Source of the DNA: Fistulifera solaris
Taxonomy: Eukaryota
Assembly (NCBI GenBank): GCA_030295235.1
Contig: AP026124.1
Coordinates: forward strand, 1,860,001-1,924,000
Length of the DNA: 64,000 bases
Direction: 5' to 3'
Shown here: one piece after another, positions 7,281 to 57,875 of the stretch
Layout: the number at the start of each line of letters is the position of its first letter
Numbering within the stretch: position 1 is the stretch's first letter
Translations under genes and position numbers: made by a program
Notes under the pieces: generated by a model
The model's database searches: none
The model's input: the letters and a program-made list of their open reading frames with translations, nothing else
Told to the model about the DNA's origin: nothing

Positions 7281-9397
7281 ATGGATTTCTCTGTTGTGGC
7301 AGCAGTCGGCTCGTTTTTTATGTCAGAGCGTGTCCTAAAGCCTAAGGCGACAGTTTTGGTTCTTCTGGGATGCGTACTGACGTATGACTTGACAACAAAG
7401 ACTCACGACGTGGCCAGTTTGCGAGTCTACCGAGGTAAGTAGACTGTTGGCAGCATTGATTTTATGGCAAGAGGCGCGAGCTAATTCAGTTTGATGACGA
7501 AAGGACCGGCACTGCTGGCCTTCACCTTGATGATGGTTGCCTTTTCTTTGCGGACTTGGAGGCGAAATGGAGTTGCTTGTGATGAGTTATTATTTTTGCC
7601 GGGCACGTGGTATGCAGAATCACAAAGAGCTAGCAATGAGGTGCCTTCGGCGGAAGGTGATCTAGCAGGTGGACCAGCATGGAACTTGGATTCGGCTGAG
7701 CCTATCATGGAAATGACAAATCAGGTTACAAGTACGAGTCGCCATCGTGCCCGCTCACTGTCACGCGATAGCTCCCTTTCTTCGATTAGAGAATTTGCAA
7801 AAGCTGGGACGACGAGGAAAACTCCCCAGAAAACGACCTTGAGCGCGTTCCACTAAGTGTTAATGAACAAGATATAAGGAGAACGGGAAGTAATGTTACG
7901 GTGGCAAGGAGTCCGGAGGGTTCCAATGAAATCGTGCACCCACCAGATGCTGTAGATCGTTTTCGCGAGAATCACCCAAGGATCACAGGTCTTGGAAGTT
8001 TCTTCTTTTTCGCAACTCGACAACTAGCACACAAAGTGCGGCGTACGCCCCTTCTGGCCCTTCGGTGGTCGGTGCTGCCCTTGATCTCTCAATGCCAATT
8101 TTGTTCAATTTTCATCTGTTCATTGAAGCTTTCAACCATTACGACAATCACGGTGGACCCGAAACACCAGCAAAAATACTTCCTTTGATTTTTCTAAGTG
8201 TCTTGCTGGTACGGACAACCATACCACCGGGACGTCGAGGTCGATTTTGGGGAACAATGATGTTCGTTTTCATGGCGCCACTTCACGCCAGCCAGTTTCG
8301 TGACTCCTATTTGGGCGACGTGGTGACATCTCTAGTGCGCCCATTACAGGACGTAATGTTTGCCTTGGCTTATTACGTCACAGTCGTTTATGGAAGCTTG
8401 TCGGGGGACTATGGATTGTCGGACAGCGGCAGAATCCTCGGGTCGAGTCGCATTCTACATAATGTGGTGTTGCCCTCTTGTTCTCTTCTGCCTCTATGGT
8501 GGAAGTTTTTGCAAACACTGCGGGAATGCTACGATACAGAGAAGCGCTGGCCTCATTTGGGAAATGCTTTTAAATATTTGTCGGCAGCGTTAGTGATAAT
8601 GTATGGAATGACCCATCCCGAGGAACGATGGGGTCCGCAATGGATTTGTGCATTCATAGCTGCGTTGGTCTATCAAATCTGGTGGGATACAATCATGGAT
8701 TGGGAGCTCTTCGTCGTAGTTCCACGACAAGAGGAGCATCTCGCAGAAAGCACCTGTTTCACGCGTATATCGTCAGTCAGACCCAACTCGTACTTTCTCT
8801 TGAATCTACAGCGTTACATCATTCAACCCACACGTGATATCATATGGCTTGCATTGAGCTATTTACCAAGTTGGAAGCAGATTCAGTTAAGGCCACAGAG
8901 ACTTTACAAGGGGGGAGGCATTTTATTGGAGAATCTTTGCATACAACTGTATTTTCCGAGCAGCATGGATGCTATGCTTCATTCCCTCATACCACCTCGA
9001 CGGAAGAAGTTTCAGCGCTGACACCCACACATATGTTGGAGTCCTATTACCAGTCATTGAAATTTTACGACGAACATTTTGGGGCTTTTTGCTCTTGGAA
9101 GTCAGGACAATTCAGATGACTAATTCCGCGGGAGCTTACAATTCTGTTGAATGCCGAGAAGATGCAGATGTATCCGTAGACTCAGATGACAACAGCAAGC
9201 ATGGAGCGCGACAGTTTCTTCCTTCGTGGCTTGGTAATCAGCAGCAGCTACACCAGGATGCTGCGACAATTTCGTCTAGGGTCAATATGAAAGATCTTTT
9301 TGAATTTGACGAAGCAACACGACACAAACTATTCCTTGCTGAGCTGTCGACATGGGCGCTTGCATTTATTGGATTGGGGCTATGGGTAACTACGTGA
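7281..9397 (+). CDS. EXS (ERD1/XPR1/SYG1) family membrane protein; intron from ~7435, frameshifts
   Basis: FRDSYLGDVVTSLVRP, LPLWWKFLQTLRECYD, WPHLGNAFKY, WWDTIMDW, EILRRTFWGFLLLE; start codon uncertain. Confidence 0.85.
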
Positions 9398-37354: not shown

Positions 37355-40300
37355 ATGGCGGACGAGTTAGAGGATTTGTTCGGTGCGTTTGATGGCGAAA
37401 ACGATAATGCGTCGAGCCATGAGCAGGAACCGGATTTGAAGAAGCTTCGCGTCGCTCAAGAGCATGCGAACGAAAATACTGATACGGAAAAACAAAAATC
37501 ATCATCCAACTTTGCTTCCATCATGGCGCAGCCGATTGTATCACATCTGTCTTCAACATCTAATATTGCAAAACCTGCGGCTTCTGGGGCAGCCAAGGTT
37601 ACCGAAACCGAAGGAGAAACGAAACGAGAAATCGCTACAGGTACCTCACACGATAAATCAGTACGATCGTACTCGGCATATCCCAAAAATTTACCTCCTG
37701 GGCACGAATTACCCAAAGTAGAACCACCGAAAGAACCGGCAAAAACCTATTCCTTCGAACTCGATCCCTTCCAGGCACAAGCCGTTGGTTACATTGATAA
37801 AGAGGAATCCGTCCTCGTCGCTGCACACACATCCGCCGGTAAAACGGCAGTGGCCGAATATGCCGTCGCCAAGAGTTTGAAACAGGGACAACGAGTCGTT
37901 TACACGTCTCCCATAAAAGCGTTGTCGAATCAAAAGTTTCGTGACTTGCAGGAAGAGTTTTCCGACGTAGGGCTCATGACGGGTGACATCACCATCAATC
38001 CGACCGCCACGGCACTGGTCATGACGACCGAAATTTTGCGATCCATGCTGTATCGAGGGAGTGAACTGATGCGCGAAGTTGCGTGGGTGATTTATGATGA
38101 AGTGCATTACATGCGTGATTCAGAGCGCGGTGTCGTGTGGGAAGAATCCATTATTCTTTTGCCCCACCGCGTGCGGTTCGTCTTTTGTCCGCCACCATTC
38201 CCAATGCGAGCCAGTTTGCGGAATGGATCGCGGCAATCCATCATCAGCCGTGTCATGTAGTGTATACCAATTATCGCCCCACGCCTCTGCAACATTACAT
38301 TTTTCCTTCCGGTGGTGAAGGCCTTCATTTGGTCGTCGACGATAAAGGTGCGTTCCGGCAGGCCAATTTTCAAAAAGCAATGGCCTCGTTGCAATCGGGG
38401 TCCGTGAATGTGGCGGCTGCAGAGGCTATGTTAAATTCGGGAAATGGAAAGAAGAACAATAAGAGGAATGGCGGCAAAAAAGGCAGTGGGACCTTTCATG
38501 ATCTTAAGCGAATCGTAAAACTCGTCATGGAACGGAATTTGAATCCTGTCATTGTCTTCTCTTTCTCGAAAAAAGACTGTGAAAAGTTTGCCCTGGCGCT
38601 CAAGGAAGAGGAATACAATGACGATGTTGAAAAGACTTGATCTCGCGAGTATATCACAATGCGATTGACTCACTCAGCGAGGACGACCAGAAACTTCCCC
38701 AAGTGCAAGCTCTGTTGCCCTTACTGAAGAAAGGCATTGGTATTCATCACGGTGGTCTACTGCCGATTCTGAAGGAGATTGTGGAGATTTTGTTTTCCGA
38801 AGGTCTGATTAAGATTCTTTTGCAACCGAAACATTTGCAATCGGTATTAACATGCCCGCCAAGACTGTCGTCTTTACTAACACGCGCAAATGGGACGGTA
38901 AAGACATGCGATGGCTCACAAGTGGAGAATACATTCAAATGTCGGGTCGAGCAGGCCGTCGTGGGAAAGACGACCGCGGCATCGTCATACAAATGCTCGA
39001 TGAGAAGATGGAACCGGCAGTTTGTAAATCCATTCTGTATGGAGACCCTGATCCTCTCAACTCGAGTTATAGGATCTCGTACAATATGTTGCTGAACTTG
39101 ATGAGAGTTGAAGATGTGGACCCAGAATATCTATTGCGCGCATCGTTTCATCAGTTTCAACGTGAACAGGACGCACCCGCTCTTCTGTCTCAAGCCGAGG
39201 AACTGGAGCAAGAGGCCGAGAATATAACTGTCGGCGATAATGATGATGAAAATAGATTAGCTAGCGAGTACTTCAACATGGAGCATCAGCTATTTCTGAC
39301 GAGGCAAAGTATAACCAAAACAATCCAGAATCCGGACTATATTTGGAAGTTTCTCAATACTCCTGGGCGCATGTTAGATGTCTCTATCGACGGCGATTTT
39401 TATGGTTGGGGCGTTCTCGTATCGTCGTCGAGCAAGCGAATCCCTGGTACACCTCATCAACAGTATGCCCTCGATGTTCTACTAGGATGCATGGATCGTC
39501 AGTTCGACACAGATATTTCAAAACGGAAGGGAGCAGACGAGGACGCTGAGAACGTTTCTTTGCTTTGGAGGGGGAATCCTGTCACTTGTCGTCCGGTGAC
39601 GGCTGCCGATAAGGAAGACCTTGTCAAGAAGAAGCTAATATCCATGCGCGTCTTTACTGTCGGATTACAGCAACTCCAGAGACTGTCTGCCATTCGTATT
39701 CACGTCCCACAGAATGTTCAGCTTCCCGAGGCACGAAACAAGGTCGCCAAGGCCGTTGAAGAAGTTATGAAGCGGTTTCCTGAAGGCATACCTTTGTTAG
39801 ATGCTGTGGAAGATTTGGGAATTAAGGACGATGCGTTTCAAGCGCACCTCAAGCGAGCAGAGACTTTGTCGGCGCTCATGTCCAAACACGCTCTAGCGAC
39901 CGATTTCGATGAAGCGAAGCGCACTGTGCTCATCAGAACCTACGAGAAGAAGCTGGACATTCAGAGACAAGCAAAAGCGTATCGTGACGAAGCACGAGGC
40001 TTTCAAACCATGGCAATGAAGGACGATTTGAAACGCATGAAAAGAGTGCTAAAGAAGCTTGGACATGTTGACGCCTCAGGAGTAATTCAAACAAAAGGAA
40101 GAGCAGCATGCGAGATAAATACAGCCAACGAGCTTGTCGTCGTGGAAATGATTTTTGCTGGAGTATTTAACGACTTGTCACCCGAGCAGTGTGTTTCCTT
40201 GCTATCCTGCCTCACGTTTTCTGAACCATCAAAAGACGAGGGGGACCCGGCCCAAGGCTTGAAGAGCTTCCTATCCAACCCCTTTTACAAACTACAAGAA

Positions 40301-40850
40301 ATTGCAAGAACTGTGGTCCGCGTAGAAGCTTCCTGTGGTATTGAAGTTGACGAAGATGAGTTTGTCGATCAATTTAACCCGGGGATGTAAGTAGTCGGTG
40401 CAAATGCCTCGTTCTTGTGTGATGATTATTGTTTTCTGTCGTTCCTTTCGAATTGTTGGAGCCGCGGTTTTGTACTGGAGCTCGCAAGGAGAAGCCGGGA
40501 ACGATCCTATATTTATGAGGAATATAAAGCGACCATACTCTCTGAGCACTCAAAAGGGTTTTGCTATACGTTTGCTTCGACGCTGCTTCCGTACTCACTT
40601 GATTTTCTTCAAATACAGGATGGAAGCCGTGTTCGCGTGGTGCAAGGGGGTGAAATTTGTTGAAGTGCAAAAACTTACCGAGTCCTTTGAGGGAACCACG
40701 ATCCGAACCCTTCGTCGGGTGGAAGAACTTGTTCGACAAATCGCAGTTGCGGCAAAATCGATAGGTAACTATGAGCTTCAGTCCAAGTTTGAGAAGGGAA
40801 GTGAACTTGTCAAGCGCGATATCGTATTTTGCAGTTCATTGTACCTTTAA
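37355..40850 (+). CDS. MTR4: Exosome RNA helicase MTR4 (intron 40387-40618; frameshifts ~38185, ~38635, ~38820)
   Basis: [35 protein letters not shown], arch domain, C-terminal [12 protein letters not shown]. Confidence 0.95.
40415..40549 (+). ncRNA. Candidate intronic box C/D snoRNA
   Basis: C box GTGATGA 40419-40425; D box CTGA 40542-40545; 12-nt GCGACCATACTC one nt before D is complementary to conserved 18S GAGUAUGGUCGC (recalled from memory); host intron is 232 nt versus about 60-130 nt for other introns here. Confidence 0.7.
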
Positions 40851-40995: not shown

Positions 40996-43117
40996 CTACC
41001 AGTCCTTCTGCATTTCTATTGTTTTTGCAATCGCCCTGGTCGTTTAATAGCGGCATCAATCAATGCGGAGTTGTGTGTTATTCCTATAACTGCAATCCCA
41101 CCTTCATGTTGACTATTGCCATTAACACCATCCATCTCTGTAAGGAGCGTTGCAAGTACACGATCAAGCGTTCCTTCCGTAGTCGGATCGTTTCCACGAA
41201 CTGCCGCAATATTTTCGATACCTTCGAGAAGAAGGATACACGGCGATGCTTTCCTTGCGCTGTCAAAAAGTCTCTGAACTGCTCGTTCGGATCCACCGAC
41301 TTCTTTGTGAATCAATGATGTACAACTCACATCAAGTATCTTGATCGTCGGCAAAGAGAAACAGCATACTGACCGCAGTCCATTGCAATGCGTGTTTTGC
41401 CACTGCCCGATTCTCCGGTTAACAGCGCCCCGCCAACAACAACTTTCGATGTGAATGTACTGGATCCGACAAGCAACTTTGTTAGTTCCTTTGCTCGACA
41501 CATTGGTATGACAATAGACTCCACCAAAACTTTCCAAGCTAACTTGGAAATATCCCCTTCATAGAGAACGAAAAGCGCTCACTTGAAGTGTTGGTAAAAT
41601 CTCGGGCAGTCAAGACACGCATGTCAACAGAGTCGGCGAGAACTCCAGATTGAACCGACAAAGGAGCAAAAGTGTTCAATCTATTTTTCAGGGAATCGAA
41701 GAATAGCCGAGCAGAAATGTCCCTCATTCCCTGGTTCGACAAATCTTCGAGAGCCTGTCGGCAACACAACACGAGCTCAGCGTAGTTCTTTCCCAAAGTG
41801 GCTTCCACCAAATCATCGAGAATTCGTTCTCGATTTTCGTCCCGCATTGAGACATCATCCTCTACAATGGGTACAAATGAAATCAAAAGCTGTTTGCGCT
41901 CTATTTCGTTGGGAGGTTCCAGATGATGAACGCAATCAAATCTGTTGTAGAGGACATCGGTCTTTCTTGTGGACGTGCATAGAACAAAAATGTTGCTTCC
42001 TCGCTCGGGACGCACTCTCATCATATCTAGGACGCTGAGAAAAGTTGCTGTGGATCGCCTTAATAGCGCACTGAGGTTTCCAGTTGAAGATGCCGACTCT
42101 TTCGTCGACGCTTCCATAAGTATATGATCCAGACCATCCAATACAATCACCACGGGCGTAATGGAAACGCGAGCAGCGTGAAACATAGCAACAACAGTGT
42201 CTTCCGCTTCTCCCACCGCACTTCCTAGAATATCCAGTGGCAAACGAGGACGTATTACTGCAGTCATTGTGAGCTTCTTGTTATTGCAGAAAGATGTGGC
42301 GTATATCTAGAAATTTACCTTGAGAGGACGTTTCTTTCGCCAAAGACGAAATCTGATCGCACAAATGAGTTTTTCCTGATCCCTCTGAACCCACCACCAG
42401 AAGTGTAGTAAATGACGCTGTGACTGTTTCCCTCGCCTCTTGCATGAAGCAACGGACGGCATCAAGAACTCCGTCGGCAGAAGTTACCGCTGGACTCAAC
42501 CTCGAGCACCCTCCCTCCGACCGATTTCTGCTTTCCGTGACCTTTGCTTCGCTAAATGTAAACCATTGCTGCGTTACTGCAGCGTTCTGGCGGTGACAGA
42601 TTGCCACAACTTCTTGAAAATCAACTCGATGCAAGAGATTATATCTGTGGAGACAATGAGTTGTCGACTCGATACAATGGTCGAAGGACTTGTCGTTTGG
42701 ATCGGCACTGTAGTATATTCGATCCAGAGCCACTGTCATTTTTCGCAAACCAGTAGTTTCCAGTGCATGTTGTATTTGATACGCCGAACACAAGGATTCT
42801 TTATTGTAAGTCCAAGCAGTCGGGACCGCCATCTTTGACAATTCGATGAATTCCACATAATCGTCTGCCAATTTTGTTTCGTATTGCATCATCTGATCCC
42901 GACATTTTGCCATGAGTTCTTCCAACTCTAAGAATTCTTGTGCTACAAATGAATTCACATCCCACCAATTGTGACGCGAATAACAGATCCGCAGTGCTTC
43001 CAACAAGTCAATGAGGGTCATCCGCGTCGCATCCACGTAAAATCCGCACAGATCGAGGAGAGCCAGAATTGTGTCGTCATTGTGGTTTTCTCTCTTTCTC
43101 GCTTTTCGCTTTCCCAT
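40996..43117 (-). CDS. Double AAA+ ATPase (CDC48/PEX/SPATA5-like, divergent; intron and frameshifts)
   Basis: Walker A VGSEGSGKT and TGESGSGKT; Walker B-like IVLDGLD and LLLEGIE; LLTEMDG...DAAIKRPGRL. Confidence 0.8.
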
Positions 43118-43593
43118 GCTGGCGCGTCTTCAAACAAAGGTCAAAGATGTTTCCGACGACGACAATTTTCCCTTTCCAGTACACACTAAACAAAGGTACC
43201 TGGTATTGTTTCTTTTCGCAAAAGTCAAAACATGACAAAATATTTGTTGTGGTCGTCCGTCGTCCACTTTCGGGACTGAAAAATGAAACTGAGTCAGTCA
43301 TCGTCGTCTGTCGTCGGCGGTGTCGCAACAACATTCTTCTCCACAGTAATTCTTTCTCCTTTTTCAATTGTTCGCACCACCACTGGAGTATATCAGTAAA
43401 AGTCAGAATGAGTACCGGGGTACCGAGCCGTTGTGCCACTTACGATTACAGTGTCGTGGGTACCGGTTACCGGTACGAGGTACTTCTTGCGGCGACGATG
43501 ATATTTTTTTCGATGTGCGATCAATGCGTTTGACCATGACCATTTATTGAAAGCGGCCGCTCTTCGCCATTCCCATTTCTTTTCTCTTGCGAA

Positions 43594-54664: not shown

Positions 54665-56200
54665 TTATTCCTGTGACTCCAAAAATTCACAATACATCAA
54701 CGCCAAATGGCCCCAGTGACGCGGATCGGTTAGCGTGGCAGGAACAGGCAGACGAAAGACGGGGAACAAAGAGTGGTTTGCGGGCCATTGTTCTGAAGTT
54801 TGATCCTTGGTTTTGTACGGGAAAACTCTATCCGAGTCAAGGTTTAAAACCTTGCATGGATCACGTGCCGGCCCTTGGCTAAAGTATTCGTCAAGATCTA
54901 ACCCACAATAAGAGGTCACAACAACGATCGTATTCGCATAGTTTTCTACCAATGCCTTCTCTCGCCCGAAAGAGCCACAGAAAGTTTTAGTGTATGACAT
55001 GAGCAAGAAGGAGCTGCAAAGCATTTTCCAGTCATAGGGTATCAAGTCTTCCCAATTCGGCGGCGACATGTCAGAAAAATCCACCCCAGCACCCATATCT
55101 TCGCTCCTTGGCGCATGCTCGAAAATGTAAAGCAAAGGGTAGCGCACTAGCTTGCGCATGCGTGCGAGAGCTTTTTCCTGATCCTCTTGTAAATCTGCCT
55201 TTCGAGCCACGGCACAGAAGACTTTTAGCTCGTTCATGGCTTCCGCTAGGACGCTCACAGAAGTTGGACATTTAAATTCAGCGAGCGTTTGTTGCTCAAA
55301 TTTCTCGTAATTGGACCAAAAGATATCACAAAATCTAGCCGACGCCATCCCCAGAATCTCCGCCTTTTCATAGATGGACGTGAACTGGTTCGCCAAGCCT
55401 CGTTGGGGCGATAGATGCTTGAGCGCCACGGAGAGTTGATCCTTGATGGTCGCCATCTGATCCTGTTCGTTCCCAATGGCGTACCTCAAAGCACCTAGAA
55501 ACTTGTCAAAGTTGGTAGCCTCGAGCCGCTCTTTGTATTGCGCATCCTCACTGACTACACGGTGCACCGCTTCGTAGCGCTCATCCTGATTGAGCGTCTT
55601 CCACTTGAACTTGCCCACTTCTTCGCGCCCAATCATTTCGATAAGATCCTTATCAAACTTCTTGAACTGATCGAGGTTCATGAGAGAAGCGGTTCGGTAA
55701 AAGTACGCATGCATAGCCGAAGTCAGAATCAACACGGGAGGAAACTTCCCGCTGCTGCGGCTTCGCTTGGTAGGAGACGGTTGCAGCATTTCTTCCAGTT
55801 CTCTCGCGTTGTTTCGGAGGAAGAACAAGCGCTCCAACTCTTTTGCGTGATTCTTCAACCAACACTGACTGTTCACCATCGTCCGGATCGTCTACTTTAT
55901 TGAGAAGAATGATGAGAGGAATTTCCCTACGTTTCTCCTGATTCTGCTTGACAAACTGCAACATCTTGATTTGTTCTTCCGTGTTGACACCTTGTTTTCC
56001 ATCGATCACCAATACCACGACGTCAAAGGTATGCCACTTTTGTGCGACAAAGTTTCGGTATTTACTACCCGCACCAGCCTCATTGATTCCCGGAATATCT
56101 ACCACCACGAGATTGGCATCGTCTCGCATTTTACACAAGGGTTCACCGAGTTCAATCTCAAAGTACCCTTCGAGCTCAAGGAGTTGATGTACCGCACCGG
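54665..56200 (-). pseudogene. 5'-truncated dynamin-like/P-loop GTPase gene
   Basis: G3 VVVDIPG and G4 LLNKVD present, but no G1 P-loop upstream before an in-frame TAA near 56215; frameshift ~55880. Confidence 0.55.
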
Positions 56201-57715: not shown

Positions 57716-57786
57716 GCACCCTTGGTGTAGTGGTAACATAATTGCCTTCCAAGCAATTGCCCTGGGTTCGATTCCCGGAGGGTGCA
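57716..57786 (+). tRNA. tRNA-Gly(TCC)
   Basis: GCACCCT/GGGTGC acceptor stem, ATTGC-CTTCCAA-GCAAT anticodon arm, GGTTCGATTCC T-arm, TTTT terminator immediately after, TATAAAA ~35 nt upstream. Confidence 0.97.
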
Positions 57787-57875
57787 CTTTTGCCATATGA
57801 GGCGATTTGATGGTGGAATTAGAGCGCCATGGTGGAAATTTCTGGCCCCAGAATTTTGTACACAAAAACCGATAG

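What the first reader, a model, noticed from the sequence alone, without database searches (positions are those of the whole stretch)
40415..40549. Intronic C/D snoRNA candidate in MTR4 with two 18S-complementary elements, one bipartite
Seen: the last MTR4 intron (40387-40618) is unusually long and holds a C box (40419), a C'-like ATGAGGA (~40516) and a D box (40542). Using conserved eukaryotic 18S sequence recalled from memory, GCGACCATACTC before box D pairs perfectly with GAGUAUGGUCGC (helix 27 region). The D+5 rule would predict methylation of the U in GAGU. As I recall, the U3 5' end pairs with this same segment. A second element, TGTTGGAGC-CGCGGTT (40454-40469), can pair with both flanks of helix 18 (AGCCGCG and GCUCCAAUA) while looping out GUAAUUCCA, the 530-loop equivalent. 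That geometry resembles U13/snR45-type guides. Inference: this may be an SSU-folding or unusual modification snoRNA hosted by an rRNA-processing helicase gene.
Basis: partly seen in the sequence, partly recalled or inferred. Interest (0 to 1): 0.8.

Follow-up and report, generated by a model that had tools for sequence, protein, structure and literature searches.

The report
Conserved diatom snoRNA in MTR4 intron
The last intron of a diatom MTR4 helicase gene carries a conserved small nucleolar RNA whose guide matches a stretch of 18S ribosomal RNA that the U3 RNA also binds during ribosome assembly; it is a well-supported new member of an ordinary RNA class.

Summary
The core observation holds. 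Window 40387-40618 is a real GT..AG intron of an MTR4 gene and holds a box C/D snoRNA of about 133-141 nt (about 40413-40553).

- **Conservation:** the same RNA sits in the same intron in 4 of 4 intron-bearing MTR4 loci from Pseudo-nitzschia-like diatoms. The snoRNA body is 61-68% identical; the intron flanks are at shuffle level.
- **Guide:** guide, spacer and D box (40529-40545) are invariant. The 12-nt guide perfectly complements the 5' arm of 18S helix 27 (32 of 45 eukaryotic SSU genes; Rfam consensus). It is the only such match among 1347 D-box-adjacent 12-mers.
- **Predicted target:** the U of GAGU, which lies inside the segment bound by the U3 5' end. No methylation is mapped there in Arabidopsis.
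- **Corrections:** the conserved C box is AUGAUUA (40422-40428), and there is no D' box. The "bipartite" element belongs to a covarying internal hairpin, is not conserved as an 18S complement, and is equalled by 23 of 300 shuffles.
- **Family:** no Rfam family matches.

Expression, methylation and the organism's own 18S could not be tested.

The parts
38814..40386 (+). MTR4 exon upstream of the host intron (stalk, beta-barrel, first 100 profile positions of DSHCT)
   Evidence: Pfam PF21408, PF13234 and PF08148 (profile positions 2-100). The exon end comes from the spliced contig. The exon start comes from the best GT-AG model.
40387..40618 (+). Host intron, 232 nt, GT..AG
   Evidence: The X2 contig skips 40387-40618 (table 5). 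The DSHCT profile resumes at position 102 in the next exon.
40413..40420 (+). 5' strand of the terminal stem; the 4 pairs nearest the boxes are 40417-40420 with 40546-40549
   Evidence: Helix 1: 4 of 8 pairs change on both sides. A second haplotype has T>C at 40420, turning U.G into C-G.
40422..40428 (+). Box C, variant AUGAUUA; the window-only UGAUGA at 40420-40425 overlaps it
   Evidence: ATGATTA is invariant in 5 of 5 sequences. The UGAUGA register is lost in L002, L003 and L007.
40429..40437 (+). Short spacer after box C; no D' box and no conserved antisense element
   Evidence: Not conserved between the window and the relatives. No shared rRNA complement.
40438..40505 (+). Internal structured domain: basal stem 40438-40446 with 40497-40505, then an apical hairpin
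   Evidence: Helices 2-4 (100%, 88.6% and 98.1% of cells paired). The haplotype change AA>GG at 40500-40501 keeps two pairs as U.G. Window fold.
40459..40466 (+).
   Evidence: Invariant in 5 of 5 sequences. Pairs with 40480-40483.
40477..40484 (+). Near-invariant GGAGCTCG, 3' side of the apical hairpin base (L007 has T for C at the fifth letter)
40516..40521 (+). Box C' (UGAGGA; UGANGA in all five)
   Evidence: TGAGGA, TGAAGA, TGATGA (twice) and TGAGGA, read. MAFFT places the window one column off.
40529..40541 (+). Antisense guide: 12 Watson-Crick pairs with 18S plus one G.U at 40541; A 40537 is the fifth base upstream of box D
   Evidence: Invariant in 5 of 5 sequences. Complement found in 32 of 45 SSU loci. 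Unique among 1347 candidates.
40542..40545 (+). Box D, CUGA
   Evidence: Invariant in 5 of 5 sequences. A 21-nt island 40527-40547 is all that aligns inside the intron of a more distant relative (X6 record 15).
40546..40553 (+). 3' strand of the terminal stem
   Evidence: helix 1.
40619..40850 (+). Last MTR4 exon (end of DSHCT, stop codon included)
   Evidence: Pfam PF08148 profile positions 102-172. ORF end.

Best explanation
[quoted passage not shown] It would be released from the spliced last intron of the MTR4 pre-mRNA and trimmed back to its terminal stem.

Box C (AUGAUUA) and box D (CUGA), closed by the terminal stem, would form the kink-turn that recruits the core proteins and the methyltransferase fibrillarin. 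The 12-13 nt directly upstream of box D pair with the 5' arm of helix 27 of pre-18S rRNA. This places the U of GAGU opposite the fifth guide base, so that U is 2'-O-methylated. It is U1119 in the 1808-nt 18S of locus L030, roughly yeast U1114/1115.

A structured internal domain of about 70 nt lies between box C and box C'. There is no D' box and no second guide.

**Shown here:** the anatomy, its conservation and covariation, and the complementarity.
**Inferred:** snoRNP assembly, RNA accumulation and the methylation itself.
For: **Host and intron**
- Intron and splicing; host identity.
- The same RNA is in the same intron in 4 of 4 intron-bearing orthologous loci, out of 10 MTR4 loci found. 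The other 6 have no intron at that codon.
- L001 is 100% identical over 526 aa to a protein that UniRef names from Pseudo-nitzschia australis. L003 and L007 are 86% identical to it.

**Selective constraint**
- snoRNA identity is 61-68% (window against relatives) and 81-85% (among relatives).
- Intron flanks are 31-58% identical, equal to shuffled controls at 35-54%.
- In a second haplotype in run X1 there are 6 differences in 40417-40549 and none in 40512-40550. Upstream, 40387-40412 has 3 differences in 26 nt. Downstream, 40554-40618 has about 14 in 65 nt.
- The 3 differences that fall in stems all keep or improve pairing (40420; 40500-40501).

**Structure**
- 93% of 172 cells are paired, against 32-43% when partners are slid by 1-3 columns.
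- 12 of 35 pairs change on both sides.

**Guide**
- The invariant block 40529-40545 ends exactly where the 18S complementarity ends.
- The duplex starts at position 2 upstream of box D.
- The complement is in 32 of 45 SSU loci and in the Rfam eukaryotic SSU consensus.
- It is unique among 1347 D-adjacent 12-mers.

**Precedent in the same helix**
- Yeast has Gm1126, guided by snR41 (PMC4344503, passages).
Against: - No RNA evidence for the snoRNA itself. Expression could not be examined with the runs on offer.
- The organism's own 18S was not available.
- The target sequence rests on other eukaryotes. None of the 45 SSU loci is known to be a diatom.
- Box C departs from RUGAUGA at position 6 (U for G). 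That replaces the usual G-C of stem II with U.C.
- No D' box partners the conserved C' box.
- Arabidopsis RiboMethSeq maps no 2'-O-methylation between Um1013 and Am1188 (PMC8583080, Table 1). By my recollection, not a call, the yeast and human maps have none at this U either. The site would therefore be lineage-specific.
- In yeast the same 18S segment is held by the U3 5' end in the SSU processome, so access must be timed around that.
- Covariation rests on only 5 sequences from two deep lineages. The structure was derived from those same sequences.
Confidence: 0.6

Rival explanations
1. It is a genuine box C/D snoRNP that binds the 5' arm of helix 27 but acts as a folding or assembly chaperone, not as a methylation guide, or in addition to guiding. 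It would keep helix 27 open, or time or compete with docking of the U3 5' end on the same segment.
For: - The target coincides with the U3 Box A'/Hd site: yeast 18S 1111-1122 and 1111-1123.
- The snoRNA duplex has 12 Watson-Crick pairs. The yeast U3 duplex has 13 bp with 2 mismatches and 4 wobbles.
- The site is not methylated in Arabidopsis.
- There is a large conserved internal domain with invariant motifs of unknown use.
- Box C is non-canonical.
Against: - The duplex sits in the canonical methylation register next to a perfect box D. Known chaperone pairings (U3, U14 domain A; recalled) do not need that.
- Lineage-specific methylation sites are common. Arabidopsis alone has 40 mapped sites not previously reported.
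- Nothing here tests function.
Confidence: 0.2
2. It is a box C/D RNA whose real target is another RNA (snRNA, tRNA, mRNA or another rRNA site), and the 18S match is incidental.
For: - Only 18S, 5.8S and parts of 28S from other eukaryotes could be scanned.
- Complete 28S and all other RNAs were out of reach.
Against: - A perfect 12-mer at the right register against a universally conserved 18S segment is the only such match among 1347 candidates.
- The invariant block matches the extent of the 18S complementarity exactly.
Confidence: 0.06
3. The first reader's second element (40454-40469) is a working bipartite guide of the snR4/snR45/U13 type. It would clamp both flanks of helix 18 and expose the 530-loop equivalent.
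For: - The pairing exists against a real 18S: 16 bp with 2 G.U, looping out 9 nt.
- In a tile scan of 18S, the window's internal domain has three of its four best duplexes in 556-591.
Against: - 23 of 300 shuffles reach the same quality.
- The 5' half is not conserved in 4 of 4 orthologues (TCTTCTTGAGC), so the 3'-flank pairing drops to 4 bp.
- The stretch is paired inside a hairpin (helix 4, 98.1% of cells paired; its covariation is one-sided only, double changes lie in the helices below it).
Confidence: 0.04
4. It is not a stable RNA. The conserved block would be an intronic splicing or regulatory element of MTR4, or the resemblance is chance.
For: - No expression data.
- No Rfam family.
Against: - Box C, C', D, the terminal stem with compensatory changes and the rRNA guide are all in the arrangement of a C/D snoRNA.
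- The flanks next to the splice sites are the unconserved part.
Confidence: 0.04

Closest known systems
Intron-encoded box C/D methylation-guide snoRNAs (general class)
   Same: - Box C and box D closed by a terminal stem.
- Conserved C' box.
- A 12-13 nt antisense element ending one base before box D.
- One snoRNA in an intron of a gene for RNA processing or ribosome biogenesis. In Ostreococcus, 72 of 131 snoRNAs are intronic, and of the intronic ones a third sit in ribosome-biogenesis genes (PMC7671301, passages).
   Different: - Box C is AUGAUUA.
- No D' box.
- A conserved structured insert of about 70 nt lies between box C and box C'.
- The target position is not in the Arabidopsis map.
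- No Rfam family matches.
Yeast snR41 (guide for 18S Gm1126)
   Same: A box C/D guide acting on the same helix 27 hairpin, a few nucleotides downstream (PMC4344503, passages).
   Different: It has a different target nucleotide and therefore a different antisense element. No sequence relationship was detected; Rfam gave no snR41 hit.
U3 snoRNA 5' end (Box A' / helix Hd)
   Same: It pairs with the same 18S segment, the 5' arm of helix 27.
   Different: - U3 is a large, independently transcribed, essential processing snoRNA. It uses its 5' end, not a D-box-adjacent guide, and does not methylate.
- Its yeast duplex is imperfect: 2 mismatches and 4 wobbles in 13 bp.
- This RNA has none of the other U3 parts.
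SNORD59 / U59 (Rfam RF00273)
   Same: Weak cmscan alignment over 40413-40489, driven by box C and a U-rich stretch.
   Different: - 19.3 bits against a gathering score of 45, E = 0.19.
- The alignment ends inside the internal domain with no D box.
- No hit at all in the three orthologues searched at E up to 5.
snR4 / snR45 / U13 acetylation-guide C/D snoRNAs
   Same: The window alone can draw a bipartite pairing around a looped-out 18S segment. The guide type is described in PMC5464676 (abstract only seen).
   Different: The pairing is not conserved, is at chance level, and lies within an internal hairpin.

Membership tests
Box C/D snoRNA | Box C (RUGAUGA) near the 5' end | tested here: inconclusive
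   The variant AUGAUUA is invariant in 5 of 5 sequences, and the GA that forms the sheared pairs is kept. Position 6 is U instead of G. The canonical UGAUGA is seen only in the window; L001 has GCGAUGA.
Box C/D snoRNA | Box D (CUGA) near the 3' end | tested here: met
   CTGA at 40542-45, invariant in 5 of 5 sequences.
Box C/D snoRNA | Terminal stem joining the ends, leaving three unpaired bases before the GA of box C (kink-turn geometry) | tested here: met
   Helix 1 ends at 40420/40546, followed by G, A, U and then GA. 4 of 8 pairs change on both sides, and a haplotype changes U.G to C-G.
Box C/D snoRNA | Antisense element of 10 nt or more, ending 1-2 nt upstream of box D or D' | tested here: met
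   12 Watson-Crick pairs with 18S starting at position 2 upstream of box D.
Box C/D snoRNA | Internal C' and D' boxes | tested here: inconclusive
   C' (UGANGA) is present in 5 of 5 sequences. No conserved D' box (xUGA) was found upstream of it.
Box C/D snoRNA | Accumulates as a stable RNA bound by Snu13, Nop56, Nop58 and fibrillarin | not testable with these tools
   It needs a northern blot, small-RNA sequencing or immunoprecipitation.
Box C/D snoRNA | Target nucleotide is 2'-O-methylated | not testable with these tools
   No diatom methylation map was found in the library.
Any Rfam snoRNA family (SNORD59, SNORD21 and the rest) | Score at or above the family's gathering threshold | tested here: not met
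   - Window: no snoRNA hit at gathering.
- Best below-threshold hits: 19.3 of 45 bits and 14.3 of 63 bits.
- Orthologues L001, L002 and L007: no hit at E up to 5.
snR4/snR45/U13-type bipartite (acetylation) guides | Two antisense elements flanking a looped-out target, conserved across species | tested here: not met
   Present in the window only. 23 of 300 shuffles do as well. Lost in 4 of 4 orthologues.
MTR4/DOB1 helicase (host gene) | DEAD helicase core plus stalk, beta-barrel (arch) and DSHCT domains | tested here: met
   Pfam PF00270, PF21408, PF13234 and PF08148. The best named relatives are diatom MTR4/DOB1 proteins.

The most novel reading that the evidence does not exclude
The RNA would be a dedicated assembly snoRNA of diatoms. 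It would occupy the 5' arm of helix 27 with a perfect duplex and so take over, gate or compete with the job that the U3 5' end (Box A') does in yeast. The invariant internal hairpin (GAGCCGCG / GGAGCUCG) would serve as a second contact to pre-rRNA or to a specific protein. Its expression would be coupled to MTR4, the helicase that clears processome by-products.
Probability: 0.13. Interest if true: 0.75.

Novelty: new member of a known kind. Interest (0 to 1): 0.42.

Why it matters
Diatom snoRNAs and rRNA modification maps are almost undescribed in the literature I could search. This adds a well-supported C/D snoRNA with a defined, testable target.

The target is the interesting part. It is the strand of helix 27 that the U3 5' end holds in the yeast SSU processome, and it carries no mapped methylation in Arabidopsis. 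A methyl group there, or a snoRNP competing for that strand, would show how modification is timed against U3 docking and central-pseudoknot formation.

The case also explains why this MTR4 intron is about four times longer than its neighbours and is kept across distant pennate diatoms.

There is a practical point too. Two public gene models of the host protein stop at this intron and miss the last exon.

Tried and rejected
- **Whole genome:** none is held for the window, so the organism's own 18S, 28S and U3 could not be read.
- **Sequencing runs:** no RNA holder is listed. One run (X2) proved to be spliced RNA, but as assembled contigs. Stretches of the intron without cover in X2, X5 and X6 say nothing.
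- **18S primer scan of viral contigs:** 0 matches.
- **The genome search on the record behind L034,** to fetch a complete 28S: no usable answer three times. The spacer after box C was therefore checked only against 18S, ITS, 5.8S and partial 28S. No complement shared by the window and the relatives was found.
- **SNORD59 and SNORD21 similarity:** below threshold and not reproduced in the orthologues. Rejected.
- **Bipartite helix-18 guide:** rejected.
- **Accessory pairing of the internal domain with 18S next to the target.**
  - GAGCCGCG can pair with an 18S segment about 55 nt downstream: 8-10 bp including 2 G.U, in all four snoRNAs.
  - The window's 40432-40448 can pair with 18S 1141-1157 of L030: 17 bp with 4 G.U and a bulge.
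  - The relatives pair a different element with 1145-1154.
  - Duplex energies against the 80 nt downstream of the target were matched by 31, 19, 4 and 15 of 300 shuffles. Against the 80 nt upstream they were matched by 164, 27, 56 and 22 of 300.
  - In a tile scan that region stood out only for L007.
  - The result is inconclusive and is treated as unproven.
- **Two other D-box-adjacent 10-mers matching conserved 18S** (near 9008-9021 on the + strand and near 55726-55739 on the - strand): no box C nearby, and about the number expected by chance. Rejected.
- **Covariance model R1,** built from the five sequences: it found only those five in the window and loci L001-L010, so there is no second copy.
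- **Earlier findings of this scan:** nothing.
- **Literature.**
  - No paper in the library holds both the 10-mer of the guide and the word snoRNA.
  - 92 papers hold the 11- or 12-mer. The 20 listed are not snoRNA papers by title; none was opened.
  - The held supplement files of PMC7671301 and PMC8583080 do not contain the guide. Other supplements and PDFs were not visible and could list such a snoRNA.

Full report
**Where it is**

The region lies in a gene whose exons carry the DEAD helicase core, the MTR4 stalk, the MTR4 beta-barrel and the DSHCT domain. DSHCT is split between profile positions 100 and 102 by the stretch 40387-40618. A contig of run X2 joins 40386 directly to 40619 with GT..AG ends, so this is a spliced intron.

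The best named relatives of the protein are all diatoms: Pseudo-nitzschia, Cylindrotheca, Nitzschia, Epithemia and Phaeodactylum at 62-64%, and centric diatoms at 56-59%. One unnamed protein reaches 88%. The other three introns of the gene are modelled at 44, 56 and 59 nt (best GT-AG solutions).

**The observation**

- UGAUGA at 40420-40425
- AUGAGGA at 40515-40521
- GCGACCATACTC at 40529-40540, followed by one T
- CUGA at 40542-40545

To test the 18S claim without relying on memory, I scanned genome contigs with a published universal 18S primer (recalled). This gave 45 loci of eukaryotic rDNA sitting as contaminants in prokaryote assemblies. All 10 loci scanned with Rfam were SSU_rRNA_eukarya.

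The exact complement of the 12-mer lies 8 nt upstream of the primer site in 32 of the 45 loci. Of the rest, 1 is cut short, 2 have N at the site and 10 carry substitutions. The Rfam eukaryotic SSU consensus has the same 12 letters. Its structure line places them as the 5' side of a hairpin, covering the internal-loop strand, the upper stem strand and the first two bases of the tetraloop. This hairpin is helix 27; the name is recalled.

As a chance control I took every 12-mer lying 0-2 nt upstream of any CTGA on both strands of the window, 1347 in all. Only this one has a perfect complement in six full-length 18S sequences. The same holds at 11 nt, whereas at 10 nt there are 9 other sites.

The fifth base upstream of box D (A 40537) faces the U of GAGU. 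That is U1119 in L030 and U1118 in L027 and L041.

**Orthologues**

A search of metagenome contigs with the upstream exon found 10 MTR4 loci.
- Four (L001, L002, L003, L007) have an intron at the same codon. All four hold the 12-mer about 170 nt into it.
- Four (L004, L005, L006, L008) read straight through with no intron anywhere in the match, as transcripts would.
- Two (L009 and L010, at 52% and 44% identity) have introns elsewhere but not here.

L001 is identical over 526 residues to a protein that UniRef names from Pseudo-nitzschia australis. L003 and L007 are 86% identical to it. The comparison therefore spans two deep pennate lineages, not many.

Between the window and these relatives the snoRNA body is 61-68% identical, and among the relatives it is 81-85% identical. 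The intron flanks are at 31-58%, no better than shuffled sequence at 35-54%. The longest invariant block is 40529-45: guide, spacer base and box D. It ends exactly where the complementarity to 18S ends.

**Closer relatives**

Run X1 holds two haplotypes.
- The divergent one has 6 differences within 40417-40549 and none within 40512-40550.
- Upstream, 40387-40412 has 3 differences in 26 nt.
- Downstream, 40554-40618 has about 14 differences and indels in 65 nt (tables 3, 4 and 8).
- Three of the six differences fall in stems, and all three keep pairing. T>C at 40420 turns a U.G into C-G. AA>GG at 40500-40501 turns two U-A into U.G.

In a wetland metagenome (X6), a contig only 81% identical in the exon aligns within the intron only over 40527-40547 (tables 5 and 8).

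**Anatomy, corrected**

- **Box C.** The box shared by all five sequences is AUGAUUA (40422-40428). The UGAUGA two bases upstream exists only in the window (L001 has GCGAUGA). In L002, L003 and L007 that register has no GA.
- **Terminal stem.** With AUGAUUA as box C, the stem ends at 40420/40546. Three unpaired bases precede the GA, which is the geometry of a kink-turn (established knowledge of C/D RNPs).
- **Box C'.** It is UGANGA in all five sequences.
- **Box D'.** I found no conserved D' box.
- **Internal domain.** Between box C and box C' lies a domain of about 70 nt made of three stacked helices.

On the five-sequence alignment, 93% of 172 cells are paired, against 32-43% when partners are slid by 1-3 columns. 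Twelve of 35 pairs change on both sides, and 0 of 500 shuffles reach the observed values for four of the five measures. There are caveats: the set has only five sequences, the structure was derived from them, and MAFFT misplaces the window by one column at box C' and in the inner hairpin.

**The second element**

However, 23 of 300 shuffles of the internal region give an equal or better bipartite match somewhere in 18S. In the four orthologues the 5' half reads TCTTCTTGAGC, which leaves 4 bp.

What is conserved there is GAGCCGCG and, further on, GGAGCTCG. These are the two sides of the base and internal loop of the apical hairpin. I therefore read the element as structure, not as a guide.

I also tested whether the internal domain pairs with 18S next to the methylation target. 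There are suggestive pieces, but shuffles and a tile scan leave this unproven.

**Comparison with what is known**

- **Rfam.** It gives nothing at gathering thresholds in the window except a tRNA. There are two sub-threshold hits in the intron: SNORD59 at 19.3 of 45 bits and SNORD21 at 14.3 of 63 bits. Nothing appears at E up to 5 in three orthologous loci.
- **Arabidopsis.** The RiboMethSeq table has no site between Um1013 and Am1188 (PMC8583080, section 5 with Table 1 read). Its numbering runs 4 ahead of yeast on both sides of this region, which puts the predicted U near yeast 1114/1115. This assumes L030 or L027 number like Arabidopsis to within one base.
- **U3.** Yeast U3 Box A' (nt 3-13) pairs with 18S 1111-1122 (bioRxiv 10.1101/175547, passages). 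U3 nt 1-13 pair with the 5' arm of helix 27, 1111-1123, as 13 bp with 2 mismatches and 4 wobbles, conserved from yeast to human (PMC5354517, passages).
- **Yeast methylation in the same hairpin.** Gm1126 is guided by snR41 (PMC4344503, passages), so C/D snoRNPs do reach this helix.
- **Yeast and human maps.** That they lack a methyl group at this U is my recollection, not a call.

**Verdict**

This is a real and conserved intronic box C/D snoRNA, and a new member of a known kind. It has a single guide aimed at the 5' arm of helix 27.

The most likely mechanism is ordinary guide-directed 2'-O-methylation of the U of GAGU (confidence 0.6 for the whole statement). A chaperone role on the U3 docking strand is the main rival (0.2).

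Not shown here are the RNA's accumulation, its proteins, the methyl group and the diatom's own 18S sequence.

Noticed in passing
window 57716-57787 (+): A tRNA-Gly (anticodon UCC). It is the only Rfam hit at gathering threshold in the window.
   Followed up: partly
window 41016-43129 (-): A convergent neighbour gene with two AAA ATPase domains (PF00004 in two of the three ORF pieces). It ends about 170 nt from the MTR4 stop codon.
   Followed up: partly
window 40385-40392; proteins P0001 and P0009: Two public gene models of this MTR4 and of its Pseudo-nitzschia orthologue end exactly at the host intron, whose GTAAGT supplies an in-frame TAA after ...NPGM / ...NPAM. They miss the last exon, about 77 residues and 71 profile positions of DSHCT.
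   Followed up: partly
window 40381-40420: Every contig of run X1 laid here differs from the window at 6 positions, while further on one X1 haplotype is identical to the window. The window may be a mosaic of two haplotypes, or may come from another individual.
   Followed up: no
window 40432-40448; L002 1177-1186: The window's stretch after box C can pair with the 18S segment just 3' of helix 27 (17 bp with 4 G.U and a 1-nt bulge). In the Pseudo-nitzschia-like relatives a different part of the RNA pairs with the same 18S segment (10 bp with 2 G.U). This was not shown to be beyond chance.
   Followed up: partly
loci L011-L055 (genome contigs): At least 45 prokaryote assemblies or MAGs carry eukaryotic 18S rDNA. 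These include a 532-kb contig filed under an Actinomycetota MAG (L026) and an 18S with a group I intron in a Nostoc assembly (L034).
   Followed up: no
window 9008-9021 (+) and about 55726-55739 (-): Two 10-nt complements to conserved 18S next to a CTGA, inside what look like coding regions and with no box C nearby. They are taken as chance.
   Followed up: partly
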